A stretch of DNA of 64,000 bases from Escherichia phage dhaeg. The stretch is taken from the sequence record MN850609.1; one strand, written 5' to 3'. Below the pieces are notes generated by a model. The model was not told where the DNA came from. It worked only from the letters and a program-made list of their open reading frames with translations, and did not search any database. This document shows, piece by piece, positions 2,286 to 29,510 of this stretch. The position numbers and the translations under genes were made by a program. The first letter of the stretch is position 1, and each line of letters starts with the position of its first letter.

Positions 2286-2295
2286 TCTTAAAAAT

Positions 2296-2311
2296 GGAGG
2301 CTTCGGCCTCC
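2296..2311 (+). terminator. hairpin ggaggc-ttcg-gcctcc after the 1920 ORF stop
   Basis: 6-bp GC stem with tetraloop 10 nt past the stop codon; short T tract only. Confidence 0.35.
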
Positions 2312-2326
2312 TTTGAGGAAAATATT

Positions 2327-2808: not shown

Positions 2809-2809
2809 T

Positions 2810-3025: not shown

Positions 3026-3034
3026 GGAACCTTC

Positions 3035-3698: not shown

Positions 3699-4333
3699 AA
3701 CCAGTTATCTTAACAGATATCGATGGAGTATGTTTAAGTTGGCAGTCCGGCTTGCCTTATTTCGCACAGAAATATAATTTGCCTTTAGAACATATTTTGA
3801 ATATGATTCAGGACGAACGTTTCTTATCTCCAGGCGAACTGTTTAATTGTGACGACGAATTAGGCGCACGTTTAATCGAGAAGTATAACCAGTCAGATTT
3901 TATTCGTTATCTGTCCCCTTACATGGACGCATTAAAACACATCAACAAGCTCAAAAAAGACTTCGATTTTGTAGCCGTGACTGCGCTAGGCGACTCAATT
4001 GATGCCCTGCTGAATAGACAATTCAATTTGAATGCTTTGTTCCCTGGCGCATTCAAGGAGATTCTGATGTGTGGTCATTCAGAATCAAAAGAAGACCTGT
4101 TCATAAGAGCTAAAAATACGTACGGCAAACGTATTAAGTTTTATGTCGATGATTTGGCTCACCACTGTGATGCTGCATCTAATATTCTCATGGATATCCA
4201 AGTTTATTGGTTAGCCCGTGGTGAACGCGACTTTAAACCTAATTTAGCCGTAAAGGTTAATTCATGGGACGATATCGCAGCTATCGAATCCCTTCGTAAT
4301 AATGCAGCAGTTGAATGGATTGCTCGAGGTTAA
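3695..4333 (+). CDS. HAD-superfamily hydrolase (putative phosphatase/nucleotidase)
   Basis: N-terminal ILTDIDGV (HAD motif I DxDG[TV]) and C-terminal YVDDLAHH acidic motif; ATGA overlap with the NADAR-like gene. Confidence 0.5.
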   Translation: MKPVILTDIDGVCLSWQSGLPYFAQKYNLPLEHILNMIQDERFLSPGELFNCDDELGARLIEKYNQSDFIRYLSPYMDALKHINKLKKDFDFVAVTALGDSIDALLNRQFNLNALFPGAFKEILMCGHSESKEDLFIRAKNTYGKRIKFYVDDLAHHCDAASNILMDIQVYWLARGERDFKPNLAVKVNSWDDIAAIESLRNNAAVEWIARG

Positions 4334-4334
4334 T

Positions 4335-4607
4335 ATGTTTGTTGTTCATACAATTTCGGACCATGGCCCTACCACTACAATGGATTATGGTCACGTCAAT
4401 CAGTTCTTTCGTCATCAACCTTTATTTAGGATTGCCAAAGAAAATCCTTTATTTAAAGAATGTGTGGAGCAAGGGTTTATTTACATCAGCAAATACGATG
4501 TAAATATGTTTTCCACAGGCAATAATAGAATGATTACCTACAATAAACGCCTTGACTTGCTGTTAGAAGAAGTGGCGTATAATAGAAATCAATCCGGAAG
4601 AAGGTAA
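4335..4607 (+). CDS. hypothetical protein (about 90 aa)
   Basis: Internal ATG 11 codons into the listed ORF, immediately after the upstream TAA. Confidence 0.45.
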   Translation: MFVVHTISDHGPTTTMDYGHVNQFFRHQPLFRIAKENPLFKECVEQGFIYISKYDVNMFSTGNNRMITYNKRLDLLLEEVAYNRNQSGRR

Positions 4608-4610
4608 ATT

Positions 4611-6116
4611 ATGATTTTAGATATTTTGAACGAAATTGCTGCTATCGATTCTACTAAAGCTAAAGAAGCTATTATTGCTCGTGAAAAGGATAACGAGCTT
4701 CTGAAACGTGTTTATCATATGGCTTATACCCGTCGTCTGAACTACGGTATTAAAAAGTGGCCAGAACCTGGATTTACGTCTCAATCCTTTGGTATGATTA
4801 CACTTGAAGACCTTCTTGATTTCGCTGAGTTCACACTAGCAACCCGTAAGATTACAGGTAATGCTGCTATTGAAGAACTTGCTCAAATTATTGCTGATGC
4901 CAAGGGTCCTGACGCTGAGGTATTACGTCGCGTAATGATGCGTGACCTTGAATGTGGTGCATCGATTTCTATTGCCAACAAGGTTTGGAAAGGTTTAATC
5001 CCTGAACAACCTCAAATGTTGGCTAGTTCTTATGACGAAGCTCTAATTAAGAAAAATATTAAATGGCCAGCGTTCGCTCAATTAAAAGCTGACGGTGCTC
5101 GTTGTTTTGCTGAAGTTCGTAACGATGGGGTAACATTCCTTACTCGTGGTGGTAATGAATATCAAGGGCTTACTAAGCTTGCAGCCGAACTTATTAAAAT
5201 GACTGAAGAAGCTCGTCAGCGCCATCCTAATGGTGTTATGATTGACGGCGAATTAGTTTACCATACACCTAAAGTAGAACCTAAAGCATCTAATGATTTG
5301 TTTAGTATGTTTGATGAGGAACTTCCTGAATTAAGTAAGGCTAAGGAATTCCAAACCGTAGCTGATCGTTCTACGTCAAATGGCTTGGCTAATAAAGCCC
5401 TCCAAGGAACTATTACTCCGGCTGAAGCTGATGGTATGGTATTACAGGCATGGGACTTTGTTCCACTGGATGAAGTTTATTCTGAAGGCAAAATTAAAGG
5501 TCAAAAATACGATGTTCGTTTAGCGGCATTAGTACAAATGGCTGAAGGTTTTACACGTGTCGAGCCTATCGAAACGCAATGGGTTAATAATCTTGACGAA
5601 GCTAAAGTCGTTTATAAGAAATATGTCGACCAAGGTCTGGAAGGTATTATCCTTAAGAACATGGACTCCTACTGGGAAAACCGCCGTTCTAAGAATCTTA
5701 TCAAGTTCAAAGAAGTAATTGATATCGCTTTAGAAGTGGTGGGTTATTATGAACACTCGAAGGACCCTAACAAACTTGGTGGTGTCGAGCTAGTATCGCG
5801 GTGTCGTCGAATTACATCCGACTGTGGTTCAGGCTTTAAAGATACTACCCATAAGAAAGATAAATCAGGTAAAAAGGTATTGATTCCATTGGAAGACCGT
5901 CCTGATTTAGACCGTGAACTTCTTATGAAACAAGCTCGTGAAGGTAAGTTGATTGGACGTATTGCTGACTGTGAATGTAATGGTTGGGTTCATTCTAAAG
6001 GACGTACAGATACTGTAGGTATTTTCCTTCCAATTATTAAAGGTTGGCGTTTCGATAAAACAGAAGCTGATACATTTGAAGATGTATTTGGTGATTGGTC
6101 TCAAACTGGACTATAA
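4611..6116 (+). CDS. 30: ATP-dependent DNA ligase (gp30)
   Basis: 501 aa; adenylation motif I lysine in FAQLKADGARCF (KxDG); size and position as T4 gene 30. Confidence 0.9.
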   Translation: MILDILNEIAAIDSTKAKEAIIAREKDNELLKRVYHMAYTRRLNYGIKKWPEPGFTSQSFGMITLEDLLDFAEFTLATRKITGNAAIEELAQIIADAKGPDAEVLRRVMMRDLECGASISIANKVWKGLIPEQPQMLASSYDEALIKKNIKWPAFAQLKADGARCFAEVRNDGVTFLTRGGNEYQGLTKLAAELIKMTEEARQRHPNGVMIDGELVYHTPKVEPKASNDLFSMFDEELPELSKAKEFQTVADRSTSNGLANKALQGTITPAEADGMVLQAWDFVPLDEVYSEGKIKGQKYDVRLAALVQMAEGFTRVEPIETQWVNNLDEAKVVYKKYVDQGLEGIILKNMDSYWENRRSKNLIKFKEVIDIALEVVGYYEHSKDPNKLGGVELVSRCRRITSDCGSGFKDTTHKKDKSGKKVLIPLEDRPDLDRELLMKQAREGKLIGRIADCECNGWVHSKGRTDTVGIFLPIIKGWRFDKTEADTFEDVFGDWSQTGL

Positions 6117-6338: not shown

Positions 6339-8399
6339 ATGACCGAACAATTGAATGAGGTGTTTGAGTCCGAAGGCACCCTGCCTACTGTAAACTTAAA
6401 CCCAAAACTTAAAGTACCGCAGATTTGGAAGATTGGCGACGCCGAATCCCAATTAGTGGCCCGTATGGTATCTTATGCCTCTGAAGGCGATGCTATTAAA
6501 CAGGTTAAATTAGGTGATAAATACGCCCATGTTATCCTTATGAGCCTTTCAGCTAAAGGTTCTCCGGCCGAACTTAAAGGTGGCTTAGGCCCTACTCCTA
6601 TTGATGCTATTAATACCATTTTCGACGTAGTATTCGAACAAGTTAAAAAGCTTCGTATGGATGCTGTGATGTTCCGTTTTCCAACCAAGAAAATGAAAGG
6701 GCAAGGACCTATTGTCCAACGGATTATCCAACGTTTGGTAGCACAGAAAACCGGTGGACGTTTTAAAGTAGTTCCGGCTATGTACCAATTTACCGGTAAA
6801 CATACTTATATCCTAGTAGTTCGTAAACAAGCTGATATCGAAGATATCAAAGGTATGCCTGGAATTAATGCCGAATTGTATACTAAGGTAGATTCTGATG
6901 TTGGTGAAGTTTATATTTCTAAAAAAGAAGGCCTGCAGGTTACTAAAGAAACTGCTATTGCCGGCAGTATTGCTAAAGTTGAAGAACGTCGCACTGATAA
7001 AATGGTTATAACCAAGACTAAGATTTCTCGTCGCGCTATTGCAGCAAGCCAGTCTTTAGAATCCTATCGTAATGAAAGTGAACTGTTTAAGAAATATGAA
7101 GCCACTGCCGCTGATTTTAATAAACCGGCAACAGCTCCATTAATCCCTGATGCCCAAGAAATGGTTACTAATAACAATTCTCCTGCGGCTAAAAATAAGG
7201 TTGCTAATATAGTAGCTGAAGGCACTGCTGAAGAGTTGCATTACGATTATAAAATGTTTCCTCTTCACGGTATAGGTGAAATCCAAGAGAAAATTAAAGA
7301 GAGAATCCTTACGGCCATCAAAAACGAACCTTTGACATCTGTTAAAGCTCTAGAAAAATATGCCTCTGTTATTAATACCGTTTTCGAAGAATACAAAGGT
7401 GAATGGCTGGCTAAGCATAACAAAACTCGTAAAGGTCAGCCTGATGACGTCTGGAATGAATTAACCGAGTCCAAGTGGAAAGCAGCCAAGACCAAGTTCA
7501 TTAAAAAACGTGTGTATAGTTTTGCTGGTGTAGGTGGTGGTATTATGGTTGATATTACTTTAGGTCATAGTGCAGATAAATACACCCCTTCTCAAAAACG
7601 TGGTATTCGTGAATATTGTGGCTCCGGATATGGCGATATCAATAACCTTCTTTTAGGACGATATAATCCTCAGAACTATGAGGTTATGAGCGAAAAAGAT
7701 ATCGAATCTGCAGTTAATAATTTGGATTCTGCTTTTGAAAACGGTGATAGATTACCTGAAGGCATTACTGTTTATCGTGCACAGAGTATGACGTGGGCCA
7801 TATATAATGCTTTAGTCAAAAATAAAGTATTCTATTTTAGAAACTTTGTATCCACTTCACTGACTCCTATTATTTTCGGCCGTTTTGGTGTTACTCATGC
7901 GGGTGTGGGTCTTTTAGAGCCTGAAGTTAGAGCCGAACTTACCGTAGATAAAAATGATGAAGGTTATACTAAGGTCCAAGGTTCCGGCGACAAGTTGGTT
8001 AAAGTTGGTTGGGCTATTGATGGGGCTTCTAAGGTTAACGTAGTATTCCCTGGGCAACTTGGCATTGCTACTGAAGCTGAAATCATTCTCCCGCGTGGAC
8101 TAATGGTAAAAATTAATAAAATAACAGATGCATCCAATAATGACGGTATAATATCCAACAATACAAAACTCATTCAAGCTGAAGTTATGACAACAGATGA
8201 GCTTCAAGAGTCAGTGGTATATGATGGTGATGTACTAATGGAAACTGGTGAATTGGTTGTATACCAAGATGACTTCGATACTTCCGAAAGCCCTGTATCT
8301 TTTGATTCATTTGTTAAATCTACACGGTTTGACGTACTGCCTCTTTTGGCTTCATGCATAGACCTCTATGACATCCCAGAAAAATTCATCCAAGGGTAA
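6339..8399 (+). CDS. alt: Alt-type ADP-ribosyltransferase, paralogue 1 (packaged, injected)
   Basis: 686 aa (T4 Alt about 682); C-terminal R-S-ExE triad (TVYRAQ / FVSTSL / ATEAEIILPRG); N-terminal LNE motif consistent with gp21 processing; position between 54 and 30 as in T4. Confidence 0.85.
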   Translation: MTEQLNEVFESEGTLPTVNLNPKLKVPQIWKIGDAESQLVARMVSYASEGDAIKQVKLGDKYAHVILMSLSAKGSPAELKGGLGPTPIDAINTIFDVVFEQVKKLRMDAVMFRFPTKKMKGQGPIVQRIIQRLVAQKTGGRFKVVPAMYQFTGKHTYILVVRKQADIEDIKGMPGINAELYTKVDSDVGEVYISKKEGLQVTKETAIAGSIAKVEERRTDKMVITKTKISRRAIAASQSLESYRNESELFKKYEATAADFNKPATAPLIPDAQEMVTNNNSPAAKNKVANIVAEGTAEELHYDYKMFPLHGIGEIQEKIKERILTAIKNEPLTSVKALEKYASVINTVFEEYKGEWLAKHNKTRKGQPDDVWNELTESKWKAAKTKFIKKRVYSFAGVGGGIMVDITLGHSADKYTPSQKRGIREYCGSGYGDINNLLLGRYNPQNYEVMSEKDIESAVNNLDSAFENGDRLPEGITVYRAQSMTWAIYNALVKNKVFYFRNFVSTSLTPIIFGRFGVTHAGVGLLEPEVRAELTVDKNDEGYTKVQGSGDKLVKVGWAIDGASKVNVVFPGQLGIATEAEIILPRGLMVKINKITDASNNDGIISNNTKLIQAEVMTTDELQESVVYDGDVLMETGELVVYQDDFDTSESPVSFDSFVKSTRFDVLPLLASCIDLYDIPEKFIQG

Positions 8400-8402
8400 A
8401 TA

Positions 8403-10526
8403 ATGGAAAATTTAAACGAAGTTTTTGATAGTGATTCCGCTAAAAACTATCCAGTAACAAATCTTAAACCAGGCTCCGGTATCCCACAGATTTTCTCTAT
8501 TCAAGCACCAGGTAACGATAACCTGGTTGCTCGTATGGTATCTTATGCGTCTCAAGGAGACGCTATTAAAATGGTTAAGCCCGGCGACAAATACGTTCAT
8601 GTTATTTTAATGAGTTTGTCGAGCAAGGGTGCTCCAGCTGAACTAAAAGGTGGCCTTGGTTCCGACCCACTTGGTACATTGAATACTATTTTCGATACGA
8701 TATATGAACAAGTAAATAAACTTAAAATGGATGCGGTTTTGTTCCGTTTCCCTACCAAGAAAATGAAAGGTAAGGGCCCTACTGTTCAGCGTGTATTAGC
8801 TCGTTTGGCGATGGCACGTACCGGTGGTAAGTTTAAAGTTGTCGATAGCATGTTCCAGTTTAGTGGTAAACATACATACGTTCTTTTAGCACGTCGTGGC
8901 ACTAATATCGAAGATATCAAGGGTATGCCTGAAATTGATGCGGACCTTTATACCAAGGTTGAGTCTAAAGTCGGTGAAGTTTATGTTTCTAAGAAAACCG
9001 GCCAGGCCGTAAGTAAGGTCGAAGCCGTAGCAGCATCTATTGCACAGGTTGAAGAGAAACGTACCGATAAGGCTGTTATCTCTCGTACTAAAATTTCCCG
9101 TCGTATGGCTGCAGCAGCGCAGTATTCTACTGCCGAACCTGAAACTTTATCACCTAAAGAATTGCAGGTTTATAACGAGTTTGAAGCTTCCGTCCCTGTT
9201 CACTCGGCCGAAGGCCCTGAGAACGAAGGTATTGAACAAATTAGCCAGAACTTTAAAAAAGGTGCTATTACTAAAATGCGTCAGGCCTCTCAGTTTAAAT
9301 CTAAGAGTGAGGACCTTGCCAACTTTAGATACACCATTGCTCTCACACACGCTTTAATGACTGATAGTAAATTTAAACTAAATTATGCTAATAGAGATAA
9401 ACAAGGGTTTGAAATTTACTCTAATAATATGGCATTTTTTAATACGGAAGTCGATAGACTTTTAAGCGGCCTTTCTCAAATCAATACTACCAATAGTCTG
9501 GATATTATTAAGAGAATTGTTAATAACCTGAGTGCCCGTTTTCAGGGGTCTCCTTCAGAGAAAGCATCCCGAATTGCTTTCGCTATGGAAGCCGTTTATA
9601 AACTGATTAACGATTCTATTAGCGATGCATATGCTTATTCAGGCGAGCTCATTAAACCTAAGGGCTTGACCAAAGACGAAAGTAATGCCATTATTGAATA
9701 TTGTGCGGCTGAATATGCTCCTATGAACTTATTCCTTTTAGGTAAACCTGAATCCGAAAACAATACAACAGCTATTAAATTGATTAAGGATTTAGACTCA
9801 GCATTTACCAAGGGTATTAAACTTCCTAAGGGTACTATTTTGTATCGTGGTCAGGATTTACCATACAAAATTCTGCGCCATAATATTGATAACAAAACCT
9901 TTTACTTTAAGAACTTTGTATCCGCTTCATTAAAGCCTAATATCTTTGGTGAATTTGGTAAAAATTATATGGCCCTCGACAACCAAGCAGTTTTTGTTGG
10001 TGATGAAGGTTCTTTATCCTCCGCCGATGAGTTGTTTAAATTGGCCAGTGGTAGTTCATCTGACGTAGGTGAAGTTGATGATGAAGAGGTAGAATGGGAA
10101 GAAGACGAGTTTGGTAATCCAATTGCACCTGAAGGCCCTGCAGACAGGATTGCTGAAATTGGTATGGTTATTCGAGGTGCTGAAGCAGTTAAAGTTATCG
10201 CTCCTGGTGACCTTACAGAATATGCCGAAGAAGCGGAAATTATCCTTCCGCGCGGATTATTGTTGAAGGTTGATAAAGTAGCAGCTTTTGCTATGAATGA
10301 TAGGGTATCTCACAAATACCTTATGGAAGCTACAGTGACATCTCCTTCAGAACTCAGTGAGTCCGTTTACGATGGTGACCATCTGATGGAAACCGGCGAA
10401 GTTAAATTGATGAATGGGTTTAAAGAATTCCTAGTTTCAGAATCTGTTTCAGAAAGTAACGAGGCTATGGAAATCCTTGCTGCATCTTTGGACATCTCTT
10501 CTTTACCAAATAAATTCAAAATGTAG
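8403..10526 (+). CDS. Alt-type ADP-ribosyltransferase, paralogue 2
   Basis: 707 aa; first about 180 aa strongly similar to paralogue 1; own R-S-ExE triad (ILYRGQ / FVSASL / AEEAEIILPRG); divergent centre and an acidic insertion (DDEEVEWEEDEFG). Confidence 0.8.
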   Translation: MENLNEVFDSDSAKNYPVTNLKPGSGIPQIFSIQAPGNDNLVARMVSYASQGDAIKMVKPGDKYVHVILMSLSSKGAPAELKGGLGSDPLGTLNTIFDTIYEQVNKLKMDAVLFRFPTKKMKGKGPTVQRVLARLAMARTGGKFKVVDSMFQFSGKHTYVLLARRGTNIEDIKGMPEIDADLYTKVESKVGEVYVSKKTGQAVSKVEAVAASIAQVEEKRTDKAVISRTKISRRMAAAAQYSTAEPETLSPKELQVYNEFEASVPVHSAEGPENEGIEQISQNFKKGAITKMRQASQFKSKSEDLANFRYTIALTHALMTDSKFKLNYANRDKQGFEIYSNNMAFFNTEVDRLLSGLSQINTTNSLDIIKRIVNNLSARFQGSPSEKASRIAFAMEAVYKLINDSISDAYAYSGELIKPKGLTKDESNAIIEYCAAEYAPMNLFLLGKPESENNTTAIKLIKDLDSAFTKGIKLPKGTILYRGQDLPYKILRHNIDNKTFYFKNFVSASLKPNIFGEFGKNYMALDNQAVFVGDEGSLSSADELFKLASGSSSDVGEVDDEEVEWEEDEFGNPIAPEGPADRIAEIGMVIRGAEAVKVIAPGDLTEYAEEAEIILPRGLLLKVDKVAAFAMNDRVSHKYLMEATVTSPSELSESVYDGDHLMETGEVKLMNGFKEFLVSESVSESNEAMEILAASLDISSLPNKFKM

Positions 10527-10555
10527 TTTACAACACCACAAGGATGTGGTACTAT
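10526..10555 (+). promoter_or_regulatory. candidate early promoter GTTTAC-18-TACTAT with internal hairpin
   Basis: Same architecture as the promoters at 1850, 25527, 62616 and 62967; hairpin accaca-agga-tgtggt between -35 and -10. Confidence 0.4.
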
Positions 10556-10583
10556 TACCTTACACAAACATGAGGAGAACATT

Positions 10584-10874
10584 ATGAAATCTGCATTCCG
10601 TTTTAATGGTCAAGAACTGGTAGTTGAAAACGTTATCCCTGCTTCTGAAGAGTTCGACAGTGCAGTAGGTAATGAATTACGTCGAGTTTTCGGCGAAGAC
10701 AAACAGTTCGACTTACGCCCGGTTGAAAATTTTTCACAACCTGAGCAAACCGAAAATATTTTTAATGGTGTAGTAACCGGTCAGCTTGAATCTGAAGCTC
10801 CTATTTCTATCACGGTCTTTGTTAAAAAGCAGCCATTAATGACCGCTGCAGGTTTTATCTCGTTCCGTAAATAA
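10584..10874 (+). CDS. hypothetical protein (96 aa) downstream of alt
   Basis: ORF with gaggag SD; followed by a bidirectional terminator. Confidence 0.5.
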   Translation: MKSAFRFNGQELVVENVIPASEEFDSAVGNELRRVFGEDKQFDLRPVENFSQPEQTENIFNGVVTGQLESEAPISITVFVKKQPLMTAAGFISFRK

Positions 10875-20726: not shown

Positions 20727-20748
20727 TATAAATATAATTATATTTATA
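20727..20748. promoter_or_regulatory. divergent late promoter pair (TATAAATA plus strand for 20768 gene; TATAAATA minus strand for uvsW)
   Basis: tataaata at about 20727-20734 and tatttata at about 20741-20748 in the 55-nt divergent intergenic region. Confidence 0.55.
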
Positions 20749-20767: not shown

Positions 20768-21439
20768 ATGGATACTCAATATATTGAAGAGCTTCGTGCA
20801 CTCGAAGATAAAAAAGAAGCTAAAGCTAAGTTAATCGAATACGGCGAACAATTCGGTTTGAAACTTAAGAAAACCCGTTCGTTTGATAATTTGATTATCG
20901 ATATCTCTGAAGGCCTTAAAGCCCTGGCTGATGAACCACTTCCAGAAACCGAAGGTTTGTCTATTTCTGATTTGATTGATGCCGCCGACGAACTCACAGG
21001 CGCTAACGAATTTGTTGATGGTGCCGAACCCGCCAAAGAAGAGGCTACCCTATTATTTGATGCCCCTGAAGCGGTAGTTGAAGTTATTGAGGTAGCCGAA
21101 CTTCCTAAGGTAGAGATTATTGAAGAAGACGTCCCGTTTGTCGAAGAGAAATTCAAAGAGGCTGTGGCCGAGGTTATTGAATCTGAAAAACCTGTATTCT
21201 CTTTACCTGAAAACTTTAGCCCTAATCTTTTACTCATTGGTAAAAACCCAGGGTATTGTACTGTGCCTTGGTGGATTTATCAATGGATTACCGAAACCCC
21301 TGATTGGAAAGAACGCCCTAAAGATTTCCAACACCCATCTGCCCACCAAACACTATTCAGTCTGATTTATTACATCAATCGTAATGGTTCAGTATTAGTA
21401 CGTGAAACGCGTAATTCATCTTTCGTAACTTTAAAATAA
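20768..21439 (+). CDS. acidic protein, inh-like by position, with C-terminal WW/DW/RNG module
   Basis: 223 aa; highly acidic N-terminal two-thirds; C-terminal PWWIYQWITETPDWKERP...INRNGSVLVRE echoes the C-termini of both Hoc-like proteins; T4 inh occupies this position. Confidence 0.45.
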   Translation: MDTQYIEELRALEDKKEAKAKLIEYGEQFGLKLKKTRSFDNLIIDISEGLKALADEPLPETEGLSISDLIDAADELTGANEFVDGAEPAKEEATLLFDAPEAVVEVIEVAELPKVEIIEEDVPFVEEKFKEAVAEVIESEKPVFSLPENFSPNLLLIGKNPGYCTVPWWIYQWITETPDWKERPKDFQHPSAHQTLFSLIYYINRNGSVLVRETRNSSFVTLK

Positions 21440-21448
21440 GGGTAAAAT

Positions 21449-22861
21449 ATGGCTTTTACTGTAAGTATAGCCGGCACAGCGTCTATTAAAATAGGCGAAA
21501 GTGCTAACTACACTGCTACCGCAACAGGTGCAGCTGTAGAAGGAACCATTACATATGTATGGTCTATTGATGGTGCTTCTAATCCAGAAGCAACCAATGT
21601 TTTGAAATATACAGGTGCTGCACCTGTAGGTAAGAAAGTTTTAAAAGTAGTAGCAACTTCTACTCCGGCTGAAGGCGAACCTGAGGTAGCTGAAGATACT
21701 TTTGAAGTTACCGTAGCTAATAAGACCATGTCTATTTCTTTGGCTTTGGACCCTATTTCTGTTTCTAAAGAAGTTGGCCAATCTCAAGTTGTTACTGCTA
21801 ACGTGACGGGTGCACCTGCAGGTGCAACAATTGCTTATGTTTGGAAACGTAACACCAGCGTAATCTCTGGCCAAACTGGTAAAACTATTACTGTAACCGA
21901 AGCCGCGGAAGCAAATTACACGTTGAACTGTGAAGTTACTGTTACCGCCCCTGAATATAACCCGGGTACCGCTACTAAAGGTGCTGCGGTAACTTTTGTT
22001 AAGAAAACTATATCAGGTGTTTCTGTTACTTTAACACCGGCCTCAATTAGTACAGAGAAAGACTCATCTGCACAGTTTAAAGCGGATGTAGTCGGCGCTC
22101 CTTCCGGCGTAAATGCAACTTATTCTTGGAAGAAAAACGGTTCTATTATTCCGGGCGAAAGCAGTAATACTCTTGCTGTTGATACGTCTACAATAGGTTC
22201 TTACTCTATTGAAGTTTCGGTACTCCTAAAAGGTACGGATTATAATGATTTAACCGTTACCAAAACAGGAAGTGTAACAATTACTAAAAAGACTATGGCA
22301 GGTGTTTCTGTTAATTTAACGCCTGCTTCTATTACTGTCTCTGAAGGAATCCCGGCTTCTTTTAAAGCCACGGTAGTCGGTGCGCCTAGTGGTGCTACTT
22401 TTGCTTATTCTTGGAAGAAAGATGGTTCACCTGTTGTGGGTGCTACGGATACATTAGTAATTGACACAAGCGCTGAAGGTTCACAGGTTATTGAAGTTTC
22501 TGTTGTGGTTTCGGCTACCGACTATAATTCTGTGACCGTCACAAAATCCGGTAATGTAACAATTACGGCTAAAGTCGCTCCTGAACCAGAGGGCGAACTA
22601 CCTTACGTTCATCCGCTACCAGTTCGTAATTCAGCTTATATTTGGTGTGGTTGGTGGGTTATGGACGAAATTCAGAAAATGACCCTTGAAGGCAAAGACT
22701 GGAAAACTGACGAACCTGATAGTGAATATTATCTCCATCGTTATACCCTTCAAAAAATGGTAGCCGATTATCCTGAGGTTGATGTACAGGAATCTCGTAA
22801 TGGTAGAATTATTCACAGAACCGCTTTGGATGCTGGAATTATTTACGATTACGTTTATTAA
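21449..22861 (+). CDS. hoc: Hoc-like capsid decoration protein with four Ig-like (BIG2-type) repeats
   Basis: 470 aa; four tandem ~90-aa repeats each containing Y(S/V)WK(K/R)(N/D)(G/T)S; C-terminal YIWCGWWVMDEI...DW...YPEVDVQESRNGRII shared with the 23135 ORF. Confidence 0.75.
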   Translation: MAFTVSIAGTASIKIGESANYTATATGAAVEGTITYVWSIDGASNPEATNVLKYTGAAPVGKKVLKVVATSTPAEGEPEVAEDTFEVTVANKTMSISLALDPISVSKEVGQSQVVTANVTGAPAGATIAYVWKRNTSVISGQTGKTITVTEAAEANYTLNCEVTVTAPEYNPGTATKGAAVTFVKKTISGVSVTLTPASISTEKDSSAQFKADVVGAPSGVNATYSWKKNGSIIPGESSNTLAVDTSTIGSYSIEVSVLLKGTDYNDLTVTKTGSVTITKKTMAGVSVNLTPASITVSEGIPASFKATVVGAPSGATFAYSWKKDGSPVVGATDTLVIDTSAEGSQVIEVSVVVSATDYNSVTVTKSGNVTITAKVAPEPEGELPYVHPLPVRNSAYIWCGWWVMDEIQKMTLEGKDWKTDEPDSEYYLHRYTLQKMVADYPEVDVQESRNGRIIHRTALDAGIIYDYVY

Positions 22862-22863
22862 TA

Positions 22864-22881
22864 AAGGGCCGCAAGGCCCTT
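22864..22881 (+). terminator. hairpin aagggcc-gcaa-ggccctt after hoc
   Basis: 7-bp stem directly after the hoc stop; modest T tract. Confidence 0.5.
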
Positions 22882-22946
22882 ATTTAGTTTATGATAATGT
22901 TTCGGGAGATTAAGTTATTGACGAATAATTTTTAATAGGTGGATAT

Positions 22947-23126
22947 ATGAAATTTAACAAAGATATAGGGTTGTTGGTTTTCTTTATAGTGCTGTTTTTG
23001 TTTTCGTTAATTTCATTAACTAGTGGGTTGTTTGCTTCTATATTGGCTCTTTTCACATGCATTAGTTCCTTTTTTGGGATAATAGCTACTATAGATAAAA
23101 TTTTACATACCAAAAAGGGCCCGTAG
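22947..23126 (+). CDS. small two-helix membrane protein (59 aa), not in the ORF track
   Basis: ATG preceded by AGGTGGA; MKFNKDIGLLVFFIVLFLFSLISLTSGLFASILALFTCISSFFGIIATIDKILHTKKGP; stop lies in the downstream terminator stem. Confidence 0.45.
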   Translation: MKFNKDIGLLVFFIVLFLFSLISLTSGLFASILALFTCISSFFGIIATIDKILHTKKGP

Positions 23127-23133
23127 GCCCTTT
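23114..23133. terminator. bidirectional terminator aaagggcc-cgta-ggcccttt between the convergent hoc-type genes
   Basis: 8-bp stem flanked by A run upstream and T run downstream, so it reads as a terminator on both strands. Confidence 0.65.
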
Positions 23134-23134
23134 A

Positions 23135-24001
23135 TTATTTTTCAGGAGGGACGTAAACTAAGTCTTTCCTTTCTAAGATGTAGCCATTTCTCGACTCTTG
23201 TATCTCTACTTCAGGATACTTAGACAAAAGGTCGGCTACTTTTTGTAACTCACATTTATACTTGTATGGGCTGTTGTTTATATCCAAAGTCCAATCTTCT
23301 CCCAATCTAACGGCTTCTCTTATTTCGTCCCATACCCACCAACCTATCCACATATACGATTCATTTCTTCCACCGCCATAGGGTAAATAAGCATTAAGGT
23401 CGTTATCATATATGAAAGGGCACTGCAATACATCATCCCTAGGTTTTATTTCAACTAAAAGTTCTTCAGAAGCAGGGATATATGCTCCTTCGCAGGTCGC
23501 TATAGATTTTAATGTATAATCTCCAAATTTATCAGGGTCGTCTATTAATATATCAATATCTTCGTCTTTAGATAATTCTACTCCATCTCTATACCATCTA
23601 CAAATTCTTTCGGCATAAGTGGGTTCCACTCTACACGACGGGCGAAGTGAAACTGTTTCTCCTATATTGGCATATATTAATTCCCTAGAGTTTATATCTA
23701 GGACTATTCTTCTTGGAAGGGTACCTATTTCAAGTTCTATTTCGTTACTCTTTGTTATTTCACCACTTTTCTTATTTGTTATGGTCGCATAAAATGTTCC
23801 TGCCGCCGGGAATCCTACTTCCCATAAATTTAATTCAAAAGGGTCTTCGGTAGGAAGTTGTGGAATATGGACATCGTTTTTATACCAATTAATTTCTACG
23901 TCATCTAGAGTAGAACCGGGTGGTAATACAAACCCGGTATAAAAGGTTACTGTCCTGCCAACCAATTCATATCTAGGACCATTTATTTTAAGTACAATCA
24001 T
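23135..24001 (-). CDS. second Hoc-like decoration protein (two Ig-like domains plus shared C-terminal module)
   Basis: 288 aa; Ig-like segments with WYKND / WYRDG motifs; C-terminal YMWIGWWVWDEI...DW...YPEVEIQESRNGYIL parallels the 21449 ORF; strong AAGGAGG SD. Confidence 0.7.
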   Translation of the reverse strand: MIVLKINGPRYELVGRTVTFYTGFVLPPGSTLDDVEINWYKNDVHIPQLPTEDPFELNLWEVGFPAAGTFYATITNKKSGEITKSNEIELEIGTLPRRIVLDINSRELIYANIGETVSLRPSCRVEPTYAERICRWYRDGVELSKDEDIDILIDDPDKFGDYTLKSIATCEGAYIPASEELLVEIKPRDDVLQCPFIYDNDLNAYLPYGGGRNESYMWIGWWVWDEIREAVRLGEDWTLDINNSPYKYKCELQKVADLLSKYPEVEIQESRNGYILERKDLVYVPPEK

Positions 24002-24010
24002 TTAACCTCC

Positions 24011-25516
24011 TTAAAACGTGCTCATATTGGTATGGTCTTCGACAGAAAATAAAACTTCAACAGGGATATCTGTAGTCGTATTAAGAGGGCCGCCTACAAT
24101 AAACACAGATACAGTGTAGTATTTTCTAGTATCACGGTCAAATATTTCGTAACGGTTAAATTGTCTTGCACTAGAATAAGCCAAATCGTCGAATAATTCA
24201 GGAGATGATGACCACAACACATTACTCCAGTTGGCACATTCTATTCCGTTTTCATAGTTGGTAAATCTTTTAATATCAAGCCTATTAGTAAGACCTGCAT
24301 TAGTAGCCCTTATATGGATGCCTACAGATGAGTACATGCGAACATGAAGAACCATATTAAGGTCCCACAAACGTATTTCCTTCCACTCTGAAGTGTTCAG
24401 AGGCTTATCAAATCTTAAAGAGCCTTTCCAATATCTAGGTGGATAGAATGGGAAAAGTTTATCATATAAAGATTTTAATTGAGACTGGGTTAAAGAATCG
24501 ACATCAAATACTGCATCTTTGCCTGGCGCACCTGCAGGACCTATAGGACCTTGAATACCTTGTGGCCCGGGTTCACCCTTTTCACCTTTAGGACCTGGGT
24601 CGCCTTGCGGTCCTTGGGCACCTTGCTCTCCAGGTGCACCATCTTCTCCGGGATTTCCTGGACGCCCTTCTTTTACAAATAAATTCCAATAATCGGCCCA
24701 CAGGTCTCCACTCCCAGGATAACTATCATTATTTGCTATATTATCCTGGATACAAATCCAAGAAGACCCTTCGCACTGGACCAAATCGTTTATATAATAA
24801 GACGAACCAAGGGCCCAGTTTCCGGCCCAGATAAACCCATTACCATCTTGGCCTGGCGCGCCTTGTGGACCTTGAGGGCCGGTTGGGCCTGTTGGTCCTT
24901 GAGGACCTGGTGCACCGATATTAGCCAATAGTGCCCAAACTCCTTCGCTAGGAGGTATTGTTCCTGTATTAGAACTGATGCAAAAATAAGAAGCTCCCTG
25001 GTATCCAACTGCATCGTCTTTAGAGTATTGGGTAGATTCATCCCAGGCTCCCTTCCACACCAAACCTGCCGGGCCTATAGGACCTTGTGGTCCTTGCGGT
25101 CCTACTTCTCCTTGGGCCCCTTGTAAACCCTGAGGGCCTTCTTTTCCTGGTGAACCCGGGTCTCCTTTAGGACCTTCTGGACCTGCTGGTCCTGGTTCGC
25201 CCTTTTCTCCTTTAGGACCGGGGTTACCTTGAATACCTTGCGGCCCTGGGTCTCCTTTAGGGCCTTGTGGACCTTCAGTACCAGGTGTTAGCATCTCATT
25301 AGTTATACCTAAATGGGCCAACGCGCCTTCCCTAGAAGCTTGTTTTATAAATTCAAGTCCATAGCTTTGAGAAGAATCTAGCATAGTAGGGTCTAAGGTG
25401 CTTTCACTAGTGAGTATGTCCACAAATTCCAATGATTTGTTCTGTGGAACTTCTACTAATGATACGCCTCTAAAGTGGCCTCTACCATCATGCCCGTATA
25501 ATGGATTGTCTGACAT
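24011..25516 (-). CDS. collagen-like protein with two CBM5/12-like aromatic modules and a C-terminal globular domain
   Basis: 501 aa; three blocks of uninterrupted Gly-X-Y triplets ([13 protein letters not shown]...) separated by two ~45-aa modules fitting AW-x5-Y-x3-D-x-V-x-Y-x-G-x2-Y-x-C...W; AGGAGA SD; 10 nt upstream of the 23135 ORF. Confidence 0.8.
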
Positions 25517-25526
25517 AAAATCTCCT

Positions 25527-25556
25527 GTTTACAAGTTAAAATTCTCATGTTACTAT
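25527..25556 (+). promoter_or_regulatory. candidate early promoter GTTTAC-18-TACTAT
   Basis: Same hexamer pair as other early promoters in the window; drives the small HTH ORF. Confidence 0.4.
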
Positions 25557-25585
25557 TGAATAGTTCAAATCACAAGAGAACTGTT

Positions 25586-25798
25586 ATGGATAAGATTAAA
25601 GTACATTTTTTACATGAATCGGGTATGAATTTTATTGATATTGCTAAAAAGATTGGCGGAACTGCCAGAGATATGGCTAAAGCCTGGGCCGAAGTTGAGA
25701 ATGCTAAGGCCAAGTTTAAAGCAAAAGAGAAAGTTGTGTATCGTAAAAGATTAAACAACAAAAAGGTCAGCGCAAAGCGCGTTTTTGGTCTAAAGTAA
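25586..25798 (+). CDS. small putative HTH DNA-binding protein (70 aa)
   Basis: Internal ATG (MDKIKVHFL...); helix-turn-helix-like MNFIDIAKKIGGTARDMAKAW followed by a Lys/Arg-rich tail. Confidence 0.45.
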   Translation: MDKIKVHFLHESGMNFIDIAKKIGGTARDMAKAWAEVENAKAKFKAKEKVVYRKRLNNKKVSAKRVFGLK

Positions 25799-26925: not shown

Positions 26926-26947
26926 AAAGGGACCTTACGGTCCCTTT
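26926..26947. terminator. bidirectional terminator aaagggacc-ttac-ggtcccttt between rnlB and the gene 24 paralogue
   Basis: 9-bp stem; T tract downstream on the plus strand and on the minus strand; overlaps the gene 24 paralogue stop codon. Confidence 0.7.
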
Positions 26948-28227
26948 TATTTTTCTAGTGGTGGAAGTTTAACACCGAGATAAGAACTCAACTGGCTTTG
27001 GTTAGCCATTTTGTCCATATCAGAACCATCAATAATGCGGGCTTCTTTATCGTCCTTAGCGACGGTATAAGGGTTTGCAGTCAATGCATAACGAGCAAGC
27101 AATGCTACTGTAGGTTGTAAGCTTTCTGGGTCAACAATAACCTTAAATTCACCTACTGAAGTATCACCTTCTTCATCAACCACATCCAAACCTTCCGTAT
27201 AAGGCGCATAATATAAAGATGCGACCGTCTGTCCTTCACCCATCTGAGCATTTACACCAACAATAACATAATCACATGGACTATTCATATCGGCATAAAG
27301 AGGTAGACCATTCTTTAATACACCATAAGCCAATTCATCTTGGTCTTCCTTTTTCTCAACCCAACCGGATGCAGCGAGAATAGCAGCACAACGAGAACTA
27401 GCTACGGCATAAGTCCCAGCGAAAGAAGTTTGACGTTGGACGGCAGAGTTCATCTCACACATGTAATAATATAATGTACGAGCACGGTCCTGGGCATTAT
27501 CATAACGTGGGTTAGTAAGGTCCAATACGCCCTTTTCAGAAACACCCTGGACTTTAAAACGAGAACTCACTGTAATTAATGACTGTAATACGTCCTTATT
27601 AATTTCTTCTGCCATTTGAATGCCTAGCAGATTTTCAATGAAATTAGGAGCATTAAACCCGTTTGATTCTAGGTCTTGGGCTAATTCGACTGTCAATGAA
27701 GTTTTCAGTTTACGTGATTTAACTTCAGATTGCCATTTGTCAATACGGAAGCCTGCTTCAGCAATTTCAGGATGGCCTTGTTCGAATTTAGAAGTAATAG
27801 CAGCATCTGATACCATACGAATATGCCCAGCGGCCACTGCTTCAGAAATAACTTCACCGAGGTCGGTTTCCGTGGTTCCGGCGAAAGGAGATGCTTCTAG
27901 AACTTTAAACACTACACTTTCAAACTGGAACATATCGCCGGCTGCATAAGCTGTAGACGAATCGGTAAATTCAGGAATATTTTCACGTTCCGACATACCA
28001 ATCTGGCCTGCAAATGTAGCGCCACCAAGATAAGTCATTTTGTCGTCAGGGTTAAGTACACGAACCCCGTACAGAGCAGCAACAGGTTGGCTTGTTTTTT
28101 GTTCAGCAACTAGGGCTTTAAAGATTCGTTTATTAGTTGCTTGGGTGTATGAAAGAAGAGCAGGACGGCCAACCGAGTTGGCAGCCGTCAATGTGGATTC
28201 TTTAATTAGGTCTATAATCTTAGACAT
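26947..28227 (-). CDS. capsid vertex protein gp24 paralogue (divergent second copy)
   Basis: 426 aa; colinear with the adjacent gp24 at roughly half identity by eye (SVGRPALL.. vs SLGRPNLV.., conserved LKTxLTVELAQDLESNGF, ANPYTVAKDDKEARIIDG); 1-nt TAATG overlap. Confidence 0.85.
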   Translation of the reverse strand: MSKIIDLIKESTLTAANSVGRPALLSYTQATNKRIFKALVAEQKTSQPVAALYGVRVLNPDDKMTYLGGATFAGQIGMSERENIPEFTDSSTAYAAGDMFQFESVVFKVLEASPFAGTTETDLGEVISEAVAAGHIRMVSDAAITSKFEQGHPEIAEAGFRIDKWQSEVKSRKLKTSLTVELAQDLESNGFNAPNFIENLLGIQMAEEINKDVLQSLITVSSRFKVQGVSEKGVLDLTNPRYDNAQDRARTLYYYMCEMNSAVQRQTSFAGTYAVASSRCAAILAASGWVEKKEDQDELAYGVLKNGLPLYADMNSPCDYVIVGVNAQMGEGQTVASLYYAPYTEGLDVVDEEGDTSVGEFKVIVDPESLQPTVALLARYALTANPYTVAKDDKEARIIDGSDMDKMANQSQLSSYLGVKLPPLEK

Positions 28228-29510
28228 TAATCAGCCTCGTAAATAATTGCTGGAAGTTTAACACCAAGCAGATAAGACATATTACTCTGACCAGCCATTA
28301 AATCCATATTGGTTGCATCGATAACACGAGCTTCTTTATCGTCTTTAGCTACGGTGTACGGGTTAGCGGACAGTGCATAACGAACCATCAGAGAAATAGA
28401 AGGCTGTAATGAATCCGGGTCGACAATAACCTTATAAGCACCAACGTGTTCTTGGTCGTCTAAATCCAGGCCTTCTGTATATGGGGCATAGAAAATAGAA
28501 CCGACAACTTCATTACCACCATAGTTCTCTTTAACACCTACGATAACATAATCCAATGGGCTGTTAACGTCACAGAACAGAGGTAATCCATTCAACAAAT
28601 AACCATAGGCCGTTTCTGGGAGCCAATTATTATCTTCAGGTCTATGTTTTAACCAGCCAGAACCTGCAAGCATTGCAGCCACACGACTTGAAGCCACAAC
28701 AAACGTACCCGAATAAGAAGTAGTTTTCTGGATTTCAGAATTCATCTCACAAACAATTTCATAAAGTTTACGTGCAGATTCTGGAGCACTATCATAAGTC
28801 AAATCGATGATGCCATTATCAGATACACCCGTAACTTTATAGCGTTTGGATACGGTTATTAGAGATTGCAGAACATCTTTATTAATTTCATCTGCCATTA
28901 CTGTAGCCAGGAGGTCTTCTAAGAATGCAGGGGCGTCGAAGCCATTTGATTCCATATCCTGTGCTAATTCTACGGTCAAAGCAGTCTTCAATTTACGGGT
29001 CTTAACAGGGGCATTCCATTTATTAACCTGGAATACAGCATCAGAGATTTCTACATCACTCTCTTCAAATTTAGTGGTATGGGCTGCATCAGGAACCAAA
29101 CGACACGTTAATGACACCAAACCTTCTTGAAGAGCATCGGCCAATTCTGTAGCGCTAGTGGATGCGAGTGGGCTTGCTTGAAGAGCCTTATAAACCACAT
29201 TCTGATACTTAAAGTAGTCACCCTTGGCAATCGCCTGGGCTTTATCTGTGAGTTCCGGGATAGTTTCACGGTCTTTAGAACCAACTTCACCACCATAAAC
29301 TGCACCGGTTTGGAAACTGAATTCATTATCAGGGGTAAGATATTTGACACCATACAACGCAGCGATAGGTTGGTTTGTACGTTGTTCAGCGATGATATCG
29401 CGATAAATTAGTTTAGTGGTAGCACGGGTCAAAGCAACAAGATTAGGGCGACCCAATGAGTTGCTGGTAGTAGTTGTTGACTCGCGCAGTAATTCGTTAA
29501 TCTTTGCCAT
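28227..29510 (-). CDS. 24: capsid vertex protein gp24
   Basis: 427 aa; MAKINELLRESTTT...SIFYAPYTEGLDLDD...LGVKLP closely matches remembered T4 gp24; LRE near the N-terminus consistent with gp21 processing. Confidence 0.92.
   Translation of the reverse strand: MAKINELLRESTTTTSNSLGRPNLVALTRATTKLIYRDIIAEQRTNQPIAALYGVKYLTPDNEFSFQTGAVYGGEVGSKDRETIPELTDKAQAIAKGDYFKYQNVVYKALQASPLASTSATELADALQEGLVSLTCRLVPDAAHTTKFEESDVEISDAVFQVNKWNAPVKTRKLKTALTVELAQDMESNGFDAPAFLEDLLATVMADEINKDVLQSLITVSKRYKVTGVSDNGIIDLTYDSAPESARKLYEIVCEMNSEIQKTTSYSGTFVVASSRVAAMLAGSGWLKHRPEDNNWLPETAYGYLLNGLPLFCDVNSPLDYVIVGVKENYGGNEVVGSIFYAPYTEGLDLDDQEHVGAYKVIVDPDSLQPSISLMVRYALSANPYTVAKDDKEARVIDATNMDLMAGQSNMSYLLGVKLPAIIYEAD

What the first reader, a model, noticed from the sequence alone, without database searches (positions are those of the whole stretch)
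20768..25516. Expanded capsid-decoration locus: three proteins sharing a Hoc-type C-terminal module, plus a collagen-like protein
Where T4 has single inh and hoc genes, this window has an acidic protein (20768..21439), a four-Ig-repeat Hoc-like protein (21449..22861) and a convergent two-Ig-domain Hoc-like protein (23135..24001). The two Hoc-like proteins end in a clearly homologous module (GWWV.DEI...DW...YPEV.(V/I)QESRNG). The acidic protein ends in a weaker echo of it (PWWIYQWI...DW...INRNGSVLVRE). This looks like a family of capsid-docking proteins with swappable display domains, co-located with a collagen-like gene 10 nt upstream of the second Hoc-like gene.
Basis: partly seen in the sequence, partly recalled or inferred. 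Interest (0 to 1): 0.7.

Follow-up and report, generated by a model that had tools for sequence, protein, structure and literature searches.

The report
Capsid-docking protein family with fibre partner
In this T4-like coliphage, the head-decoration protein Hoc, a second shorter Hoc and the poorly understood protein Inh all carry the same capsid-docking domain, and the short Hoc always sits next to a collagen-like fibre gene, which suggests a two-part head fibre that I could not find described.

Summary
Hoc1 has four Ig-like repeats plus the T4-type capsid-binding domain (CBD). Hoc2 has two Ig domains plus a CBD, and their CBDs align at E 6e-18. The "acidic protein" is not an extra gene. It is the ortholog of T4 Inh.

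Second Hoc proteins and the CBD as a docking module were already published in 2023, so that part is known. Two points appear unreported. First, Inh belongs to the CBD superfamily. Second, the collagen-like gene and the short Hoc form a conserved, mobile two-gene cassette. They are adjacent in every phage lineage that has both, and one metagenomic contig carries the cassette twice in tandem. I infer that Hoc2 anchors the fibre to capsid hexamers. No binding has been shown.

The parts
20727..20734 (+). T4-type late promoter motif TATAAATA, 33 nt upstream of inh
   Evidence: Exact match. 18 matches in the window against 8.6 expected.
20768..21439 (+). inh: ortholog of T4 Inh ('inhibitor of prohead protease'), 223 aa, pI 4.44
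   Evidence: phrog_1051 E 5.4e-91. Pfam Phage_Inh_N + Phage_Inh_C. Found in 1,431 phage records. Syntenic order uvsW-inh-hoc.
20768..20941 (+). Inh N-terminal helical domain (residues 1-58)
20942..21202 (+). Inh acidic, low-confidence linker (residues 59-145; 26 D+E vs 5 K+R, pI 4.05)
   Evidence: Length and sequence vary between phages.
21203..21436 (+). Inh C-terminal domain (residues 146-223), a distant homolog of the Hoc capsid-binding domain
21449..22861 (+). hoc1: 470 aa, four Ig-like repeats (residues 1-378, nt 21449-22582) plus capsid-binding domain (residues 379-470, nt 22583-22858)
   Evidence: T4 Hoc 5vf3_Z E 1.9e-115. Repeat analysis. Pfam I-set/Ig_3/Ig_2.
22864..22881 (+). Terminator-like hairpin after hoc1
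   Evidence: sequence.
23114..23133 (.). GC-rich hairpin with T-runs on both strands, directly after the hoc2 stop; likely bidirectional terminator
   Evidence: sequence.
23135..24001 (-). hoc2: 288 aa short Hoc. Distal Ig domain D1 (residues 1-95, nt 23717-24001), D2 (96-188, nt 23438-23716), capsid-binding domain (195-288, nt 23138-23419)
   Evidence: BLASTP to Hoc1 CBD E 6e-18. phrog_1149 E 6.2e-43. AF2 pLDDT 85. Foldseek 3shs E 1.9e-12. All conserved CBD residues kept.
24011..25516 (-). Collagen-like fibre gene, 501 aa, ending 9 nt upstream of hoc2 in the same frame
   Evidence: Pfam Collagen E 8.6e-24 and CBM_5_12 E 1.9e-9. phrog_5073 'tail fiber protein' E 1.8e-83.
25283..25516 (-). Fibre N-terminal conserved domain (residues 1-78, motif (F/Y)GHDGRG); proposed attachment domain
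   Evidence: Found in only 25 of 50,697 phage records, all T4-like. No Pfam, PHROG or PDB family. Unique within the window.
24515..25282 (-). Fibre stalk: G-X-Y runs at residues 79-153, 201-227 and 284-334, interrupted by two CBM5/12-like modules (about residues 154-200 and 228-283)
24014..24514 (-). Fibre C-terminal domain (residues 335-501), beta-rich, no known family. Shared with CGG4-1, Cronus, Aeromonas phage 65 and L026 fibre A; different in JS10 and IME08

Best explanation
The locus encodes three paralogous proteins built on one ~75-90-residue alpha/beta capsid-docking domain. In T4 Hoc this domain sits at the centre of expanded gp23* hexamers. Each protein carries a different N-terminal cargo:
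- Hoc1 carries four Ig-like domains, the classical Hoc fibre one domain longer than in T4.
- Hoc2 carries two Ig-like domains. Its distal domain is unusually conserved.
- Inh carries a small helical domain on a long acidic, disordered linker.

Shown: the homology of all three domains, and the retention in Hoc1 and Hoc2 of all conserved T4 contact residues. Inh retains the hydrophobic core, the WW pair and the central loop (E-T-R-N-S for E-S-R-N-G). The gp23 docking segment is conserved.

Also shown: the collagen-like gene and hoc2 form a tightly linked, mobile two-gene cassette.

Inferred:
1. Hoc1 and Hoc2 compete for the same hexamer-centre sites and give a mixed decoration.
2. Hoc2 is the capsid anchor for the collagen-like protein. 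The fibre is presumably trimeric. It would bind the conserved distal Ig domain(s) of Hoc2 through its conserved N-terminal (F/Y)GHDGRG domain, and project a stalk with two CBM5/12 carbohydrate-binding modules and an exchangeable C-terminal tip.
3. Inh uses its reduced docking domain to bind gp23 capsomers, which would explain its old label 'minor capsid protein'. How that relates to inhibition of the gp21 protease is unknown.
For: CBD homology:
- Hoc1 vs Hoc2: E 6e-18.
- Inh_C vs Hoc CBD: hhalign 96.2%/2.6e-9, 97.7%/1.5e-12 and 98.0%/2.8e-13. Reversed and shuffled controls gave P >= 0.0014.
- PHROG Hoc profile hits Inh 156-216 at E 1.2e-4.
- Bridging sequences exist, such as P0207 'LGYWVVDEI...VTIRESRNS' and P0210 '...VIVRETRHS'.
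- In Aeromonas phage 25, Inh has 'VPYWIHDWM' and Hoc has 'VPYWVHDWM'.
- Residue map: W309, W310, W325, E355, R357 and N358 are conserved in all three subfamilies. D313 is D in most divergent Inh proteins.
- gp23 residues 326-344 are 18/19 identical to T4. The roles of these residues come from PMC10385173.

Cassette:
- The fibre N-domain occurs in 25 phage records and the Hoc2 distal Ig domain in 22. 20 records have both, always on the same strand with Hoc2 starting right after the fibre gene (spacers from +11 to -11 nt).
- The pair sits at different genome positions: after hoc1, after gp24, near tk, and next to a nicotinamide phosphoribosyltransferase gene.
- The apparent exception, IME08 (2 records), keeps 13 codons of the deleted fibre gene upstream of hoc2. 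It also has a second fibre gene with the N-domain 1.5 kb away.
- Two metagenomic contigs show the same pair. A third, L026, has two tandem fibre-Hoc2 cassettes.
- In Hoc2, D1 is more conserved than D2 (38% vs 27% mean identity). Fibre N-domain identity tracks D1 (Spearman 0.48) but not the CBD (0.005).
- Several orthologous cassettes have a T4 late promoter motif upstream or follow gp24 directly.
Against: - There are no binding, proteomic or imaging data for any of these proteins in this phage or its relatives. No paper found in the searchable library mentions the cassette or an Inh-Hoc link.
- The fibre family is annotated 'tail fiber protein' (phrog_5073), and its attachment site is unknown.
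- A trimer bound to a monomeric Hoc2 raises a stoichiometry question.
- In dhabil, JS10 and L024 there is no canonical late promoter within 120 nt upstream of the fibre gene.
- The co-variation statistic uses non-independent pairs from only 11 phages.
- For Inh: peripheral T4 contact residues (Y293, H295, W306, G359, Y360) are not kept.
- A Tevenvirinae-only Inh_C profile searched against 1.84 billion proteins found 94 Inh-like proteins and no Hoc at E <= 1e-3. The relationship is therefore remote.
- From my own knowledge: hoc-minus T4 capsids show no obvious density at hexamer centres, so Inh cannot occupy many sites on mature heads. The protease it is said to inhibit works inside the prohead.
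Confidence: 0.55

Rival explanations
1. The collagen-like protein is what its annotation says: a tail, neck or baseplate fibre. It attaches through its N-domain to a non-capsid site. Hoc2 is simply a second, shorter Hoc. The two genes travel together because they sit in a hyperplastic region and are co-selected as surface-adhesion accessories, without touching each other.
For: - phrog_5073 and many related collagen-repeat families are labelled tail fibre.
- The hoc region is known to be plastic (PMC2839356).
- Phages with a second Hoc but no mention of a fibre are described in PMC10385173 (Muldoon, PG7).
- No direct evidence of contact exists.
Against: - Adjacency is kept in every lineage that has both domains, at at least four different genome positions. 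Spacers run from -11 to +11 nt, including ATGA-type overlaps.
- The cassette duplicates as a unit in L026.
- The Hoc2 distal Ig domain is more conserved than its inner one and co-varies with the fibre N-domain rather than with the CBD. Hoc Ig domains are otherwise described as variable (PMC10385173 abstract).
- The fibre N-domain has no paralog in the other structural genes of this 64-kb window.
Confidence: 0.3
2. Hoc2 is an assembly chaperone or tip adhesin for the fibre, like the genes that commonly follow phage fibre genes (T4 gp38, lambda Tfa). It does not decorate the capsid.
For: Gene order (fibre then small partner) and tight translational coupling resemble fibre-chaperone pairs. This rests on my own knowledge of T4 g37-g38 and lambda stf-tfa.
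Against: - Hoc2 keeps the full capsid-binding domain with every conserved residue of T4 Hoc. The gp23 site is conserved.
- The fibre C-terminal tips differ between dhabil and JS10, while Hoc2 stays the same type.
- An Ig-Ig-CBD architecture is that of Hoc.
Confidence: 0.05
3. The Inh C-domain shares ancestry and fold with the Hoc docking domain but no longer docks at the hexamer centre. It has been repurposed to bind something else in the prohead, for example gp21 itself, unassembled gp23 or the unexpanded lattice. Inh would then not be a third decoration protein.
For: - Peripheral capsid-contact residues of Hoc are replaced in Inh, and the first strand and C-terminal extension are missing.
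- Inh_C is basic (pI 8.9) on an otherwise acidic protein.
- KEGG-style schemes list Inh among head-internal components (PMC13072308).
- Inh is conserved in phages whose hoc is very different or not recognisable next to it (Ah1, VH7D, RB43).
Against: - The loop that touches all six gp23 subunits in T4 (E355-N358) and the WW pair are the most conserved positions of Inh_C across 94 cluster representatives.
- GenBank records call Inh a minor capsid protein.
Confidence: 0.35

Closest known systems
T4 Hoc (highly immunogenic outer capsid protein; PDB 5vf3, 8t1x, 8t9r; Fokine et al. 2023, PMC10385173)
   Same: Hoc1 is its ortholog. The C-terminal domain is almost identical and there is a string of Ig-like domains. 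Hoc2 has the same architecture with two Ig domains. All conserved contact residues are kept.
   Different: Hoc1 has one extra Ig repeat. Hoc2 belongs to a distinct CBD subtype (F-K/R-Y-K/P-C motif). Its distal Ig domain is conserved across genera, and it is always paired with a fibre gene.
Second Hoc-like proteins of Serratia phage Muldoon and Enterobacter phage PG7 (PMC10385173, section 3.6)
   Same: One phage encodes more than one protein with the Hoc docking domain. The domain is proposed as a way to display other cargo on the capsid.
   Different: That paper describes cargo fused in the same polypeptide (Ig domains, a GDSL lipase). Here the proposed cargo is a separate protein encoded by the upstream gene. 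Inh is not mentioned in that paper.
T4 Inh (inh/lip gene product; Pfam Phage_Inh_N PF26097 + Phage_Inh_C PF26098)
   Same: The window protein is a full-length ortholog at the same genome position.
   Different: Nothing differs for this phage. What is added is that Phage_Inh_C is a remote member of the Hoc docking-domain superfamily. Precomputed Pfam hits keep the two apart.
Bacterial and phage collagen-like fibres (e.g. Bacillus BclA, PDB 1wck; prophage collagen-like tail fibres, PMC3368898)
   Same: An N-terminal anchoring domain, a G-X-Y triple-helix stalk and a globular C-terminal tip. BclA is a weak sequence hit through the collagen region.
   Different: The N- and C-terminal domains match no known family. 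The stalk is interrupted by two CBM5/12 modules. The gene is obligately linked to a Hoc-like gene.
Capsid-borne fibres in other viruses (phi29 head fibres, capsid fibres of flagellotropic phage 7-7-1, trimeric adenovirus fibre on pentameric penton base)
   Same: Long fibres attached to the capsid shell, used for first contact with surfaces. Symmetry mismatch between fibre and attachment site is tolerated. The 7-7-1 example is; the others are from my own knowledge.
   Different: No homology. The proposed anchor here is a separate Hoc-type adaptor at hexamer centres.

Membership tests
Hoc family (T4-type head outer capsid protein) | C-terminal domain homologous to T4 Hoc residues 281-376 | tested here: met
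   Hoc1: E 1.9e-115 to 5vf3_Z. Hoc2: E 6e-18 to Hoc1 CBD and phrog_1149 E 6.2e-43. Inh: met only at profile and structure level.
Hoc family (T4-type head outer capsid protein) | Conserved residues Y293, H295, R300, W309, W310, D313 and loop E355-S-R-N-G359 (PMC10385173) | tested here: met
   Hoc1 keeps all of them. Hoc2 keeps Y, R, WW, D and ESRNG, with H295 changed to N. Inh is only partial: it keeps WW, E, R and N, and has K for R300, Q for D313, T for S356 and S for G359. Y293 and H295 are absent.
Hoc family (T4-type head outer capsid protein) | N-terminal string of Ig-like domains | tested here: met
   Hoc1 has four repeats. Hoc2 has two beta-sandwich domains, top fold hit RB49 Hoc. Inh does NOT meet this: its N-terminus is helical followed by a disordered acidic linker. 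Inh is therefore not a Hoc, only a relative of its docking domain.
Hoc family (T4-type head outer capsid protein) | One copy binds the centre of each expanded gp23* hexamer | not testable with these tools
   Only indirect evidence: gp23 residues 326-344 are 18/19 identical to T4, with D336 and R344 kept.
Inh (inhibitor of prohead protease gp21) | Phage_Inh_N + Phage_Inh_C architecture, located between uvsW and hoc | tested here: met
   66% identity to T4-type Inh over the full length, e.g. RB3; also aligns in full to T6 Inh.
Inh (inhibitor of prohead protease gp21) | Inhibits gp21 and is a minor head component | not testable with these tools
   Known only from record annotations. A decoy-substrate idea (enrichment of [LI]xE sites) was not supported across the family.
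Collagen-like proteins (Pfam PF01391) | Long uninterrupted G-X-Y repeats | tested here: met
   Runs of 25, 9 and 17 triplets. Pfam E 8.6e-24, 83.5 bits against a cut-off of 27.2.
CBM family 5/12 | Match above Pfam gathering score | tested here: met
   37.8 and 42.9 bits against a cut-off of 26.2, in two stretches. Sugar binding was not tested.
Phage tail fibre (phrog_5073) | Sequence match to the family | tested here: met
   E 1.8e-83 over residues 3-226.
Phage tail fibre (phrog_5073) | Attachment to the tail or baseplate | not testable with these tools
   The label is an annotation, not a tested location. The strict linkage to a Hoc-like gene argues for the capsid.

The most novel reading that the evidence does not exclude
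T4-like phages carry a previously unrecognised two-component head-fibre system. A dedicated short Hoc (Hoc2) docks on capsid hexamers, and its conserved distal Ig domain holds the N-terminal domain of a trimeric, collagen-stalked, CBM-bearing fibre with an exchangeable tip. Capsids would then carry two kinds of fibre at once. Separately, Inh would use a pared-down copy of the same docking domain to sit on gp23 capsomers, possibly on the unexpanded prohead where Hoc cannot bind. That would link capsomer state to the timing of protease action.
Probability: 0.35. Interest if true: 0.75.

Novelty: new variant of a known kind. Interest (0 to 1): 0.58.

Why it matters
Hoc is the main platform for T4 phage display and vaccine design, and it is implicated in phage adherence to mucus.

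If a natural adaptor version of Hoc tethers a separate fibre protein, it would show how phages add long adhesins to the head non-covalently, with exchangeable parts. It would also offer a ready-made two-part display system.

The Inh result gives a concrete, testable handle on a T4 protein that recent head reviews do not discuss: a defined 75-residue domain, a candidate binding site on gp23 and specific residues to mutate. Both ideas can be tested quickly with existing T4 and Dhakavirus genetics, hoc-minus heads and cryo-EM.

Tried and rejected
- A homolog search with only the 100-residue Hoc2 C-terminus found no candidates, because of the word index. This wasted one search.
- Pairwise BLASTP of Inh against Hoc1 and Hoc2 is not significant.
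- hmmsearch of a Tevenvirinae Inh_C profile against 1.84 billion proteins reached only Inh-like proteins. HMMER alone does not bridge the two families at database scale. Those 94 hits were then used to build a more diverse profile.
- Idea: the acidic Inh linker is a decoy substrate rich in gp21 sites ([LI]xE). It is not enriched across the family. Rejected.
- The fibre N- and C-terminal domains gave nothing against Pfam, PHROGs or PDB sequences.
- An IMG/VR scan with the fibre N-domain returned only three phages already in hand.
- There is no exact or 1-mismatch late promoter within 120 nt upstream of the dhabil fibre gene. Sigma-70-like matches in the region do not exceed the shuffled expectation.
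- Ten literature search calls (two were rejected as malformed and did not run) found no statement on an Inh-Hoc relationship or on a fibre-Hoc2 pair. The T4 genome review and the 2010 Hoc functional paper are not held. Prior mention elsewhere cannot be excluded.
- gp24 duplication as the possible fibre attachment site was considered. Tandem gp24 genes accompany the cassette in several phages here. By my recollection of the JS98 genome, cassette-lacking Dhakavirus members also carry 24a/24b, but I did not check that here. I did not pursue the idea.

Full report
**Identity and layout.** The region is 100% identical to Escherichia phage dhabil (MN850621; Dhakavirus, Tevenvirinae). Only three other records cover most of it. 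The gene order is:
- uvsW (-)
- inh (20768-21439, +)
- hoc1 (21449-22861, +)
- an unannotated 59-codon ORF
- hoc2 (23135-24001, -)
- a 501-residue collagen-like gene (24011-25516, -)
- a 24.3-like gene, rnlB, two gp24 paralogs and gp23

GenBank already labels both hoc genes 'head outer capsid protein'. JS10 and IME08 have carried two 'hoc' annotations for years. A T4 late-promoter motif lies 33 nt upstream of inh. Hairpin terminators follow hoc1 and hoc2.

- Hoc1 matches T4 Hoc at E 1.9e-115, with an inserted ~100 residues. It contains four ~94-residue repeats, and the last two are 59% identical.
- Hoc2 aligns to the Hoc1 C-terminus at 46% identity, E 6e-18.
- The Hoc2 AlphaFold model (pLDDT 85) shows two beta-sandwich domains and a C-terminal alpha/beta domain. 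Its best PDB match is the RB49 Hoc Ig domains.
- All four proteins are acidic, pI 4.4-4.9.
- Within the 64-kb window, exactly three ORFs carry the docking domain.

**The acidic protein is Inh.** It is not an addition to the T4 gene set. It matches phrog_1051 at E 5.4e-91 and carries Pfam Phage_Inh_N and Phage_Inh_C. It is 66% identical to T4-type Inh (e.g. RB3) along its full length and also aligns in full to T6 Inh, and it has relatives in 1,431 phage records. The C-terminal ~75 residues are the most conserved part of the family.

**Inh_C is a remote homolog of the Hoc capsid-binding domain.**
- Pairwise BLASTP is not significant.
- A Tevenvirinae-only profile searched against 1.84 billion proteins found 94 Inh-like proteins and no Hoc.
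- Profile-profile comparison is clear: 96.2%, E 2.6e-9; 97.7%, E 1.5e-12; and 98.0%, E 2.8e-13 with the 93 diverse sequences.
- Reversed and 30 column-shuffled controls gave no P below 0.0014.
- The PHROG Hoc family hits Inh 156-216 on its own.
- Some divergent Inh proteins read almost like Hoc ('LGYWVVDEI ... VTIRESRNS'). In Aeromonas phage 25 the two proteins share 'VPYW(I/V)HDWM'.

**Register and residues.** Every alignment instead pairs it with Inh E213-T-R-N-S217. Fokine et al. describe the residue roles in T4 Hoc:
- The ESRNG loop touches all six gp23* subunits.
- N358 bonds to gp23 R344.
- R357 pairs with D313.
- W309/W310 contact gp23.

In Inh, the WW pair, W325, E355, R357 and N358 equivalents are conserved across the family. 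D313 is D in most divergent members. Y293, H295, W306, G359 and Y360 are not kept. The gp23 docking segment 326-344 of this phage differs from T4 at one position.

I infer that Inh docks on gp23 capsomers through a reduced version of the Hoc site. This is not shown, and how it would inhibit an internal protease is open. The idea that the acidic linker is a decoy substrate was not supported.

**What is already known.** Fokine et al. 2023 report 650 proteins with the Hoc C-domain. They also report second, shorter Hoc proteins in Muldoon and PG7, and a PG7 protein with the docking domain fused to a lipase. They explicitly propose the domain as a way to display other ligands. That paper and the 2023 T4 head review do not mention Inh. 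Precomputed Pfam hits never place Phage_Inh_C on Hoc proteins.

**The collagen-like gene is linked to hoc2.** The protein has these parts:
- a 78-residue N-terminal domain with the motif (F/Y)GHDGRG
- three G-X-Y runs
- two CBM5/12 modules
- a 167-residue C-terminal domain

The two terminal domains match no family.

*Co-occurrence in phage records.* The N-domain occurs in 25 of 50,697 phage records. The distal Ig domain of Hoc2 occurs in 22. Twenty records have both. In every one the Hoc2 gene starts directly after the fibre gene on the same strand. I inspected this in:
- dhabil and JS10
- Salmonella phage CGG4-1
- Erwinia phages Cronus and FBB1
- Aeromonas phages 65, GomatiRiver_11 and AS4
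- Pantoea phage Phynn
- Salmonella phage ABTNLsp5
- Escherichia phage TH15

Spacers range from an 11-nt overlap to 11 nt.

*Position in the genome.* The pair sits at different places: beside hoc1, directly after gp24, near tk, and next to a nicotinamide phosphoribosyltransferase gene.

*Exceptions.* These are remnants. AP1 and PspYZU05 keep only N-terminal fragments. IME08 keeps 13 codons of the deleted fibre gene upstream of hoc2, plus a frameshifted fibre gene with the N-domain 1.5 kb away.

*Metagenomic contigs.* Two contigs repeat the pattern. A third, L026, carries two cassettes in tandem, each fibre followed by its own Hoc2, next to a 932-residue Hoc1 and inh.

*Conservation within the cassette.* Among orthologs the fibre tip varies, while the fibre N-domain and Hoc2 D1 stay recognisable. 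D1 is more conserved than D2 (38% vs 27%). Fibre N-domain identity correlates with D1 (rho 0.48) and not with the CBD (rho 0.005). The pairs are not independent.

*Promoters.* Several orthologous cassettes have a late-promoter motif or follow gp24 directly. dhabil, JS10 and L024 lack one.

**Most likely mechanism.** Hoc2 is a capsid-bound adaptor, and the fibre is its cargo. The Hoc2 docking domain occupies hexamer centres in competition with Hoc1. Its distal Ig domain holds the fibre N-domain. The collagen stalk, presumably a trimer, projects CBM modules and a variable tip for contact with polysaccharide-rich surfaces.

The cassette and the homologies are shown. The contact, the stoichiometry and the location are inferred.

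The main rival is that the fibre attaches to the tail or neck and the linkage reflects co-selection only. The chaperone reading of Hoc2 is unlikely, because its docking domain is intact.

**Verdict.** Two points go beyond what I could find described: Inh as a member of the Hoc docking-domain superfamily, and a conserved fibre-Hoc2 cassette. Both are cheap to test.

Noticed in passing
L026 1-8861 (Logan SRR10097265 contig, 118,878 bp): Two tandem fibre-then-Hoc2 cassettes (1-1358 then 1367-2203; 2232-3992 then 4001-4861). A 932-residue Hoc1 and inh lie next to them, so one phage has four proteins with the docking domain.
   Followed up: partly
window 22947-23126 (+): Unannotated 59-codon ORF with a good ribosome-binding site, encoding a very hydrophobic, basic protein (pI 9.5, probably two membrane helices). 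It sits between the hoc1 and hoc2 terminator hairpins. The GenBank record instead annotates a 37-codon ORF at 22800-22913 that overlaps the end of hoc1.
   Followed up: no
window 26947-28227 and 28227-29510 (-): Two tandem gp24 (vertex protein) paralogs, annotated 24a/24b in JS10 and IME08. Tandem vertex-protein genes also occur in CGG4-1, Cronus and ABTNLsp5, which carry the fibre-Hoc2 cassette. Whether the second paralog relates to head decoration was not examined.
   Followed up: no
L002 (IME08) 7829-7867 and 9297-10693: IME08 keeps the first 13 codons of a dhabil-type fibre gene directly upstream of hoc2. Its annotated 'tail fiber-like protein' is missing its N-domain only because of a frameshift in the deposited sequence.
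   Followed up: yes
[not shown]
   Followed up: no
L004 6626-7129 (RB43); L008 5311-5778 (Aeromonas phage Ah1): The RB43 ORF carries the docking domain at its N-terminus, followed by an Ig-like part. The Ah1 ORF just downstream of inh ends in an Inh-like 'VVVREPRNSMF' motif. These are further architectures of the same superfamily.
   Followed up: no
window 25517-25586 (-), compared with L023, L020 and L024: dhabil, JS10 and L024 share 'AACTTGTAAACAGGAG' right before the fibre start codon. ABTNLsp5 and TH15 have closely related 'TTGTAAACAGGTATAAATA' / 'TTGTAAACAGTATAAATA', so the late promoter appears to have been deleted in the dhabil type.
   Followed up: partly
P0212 (247 aa): An odd hit with five repeats of a short 'EETRNSSGHTL' segment that matches only the last third of Inh_C. 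It is probably unrelated repetitive sequence.
   Followed up: no
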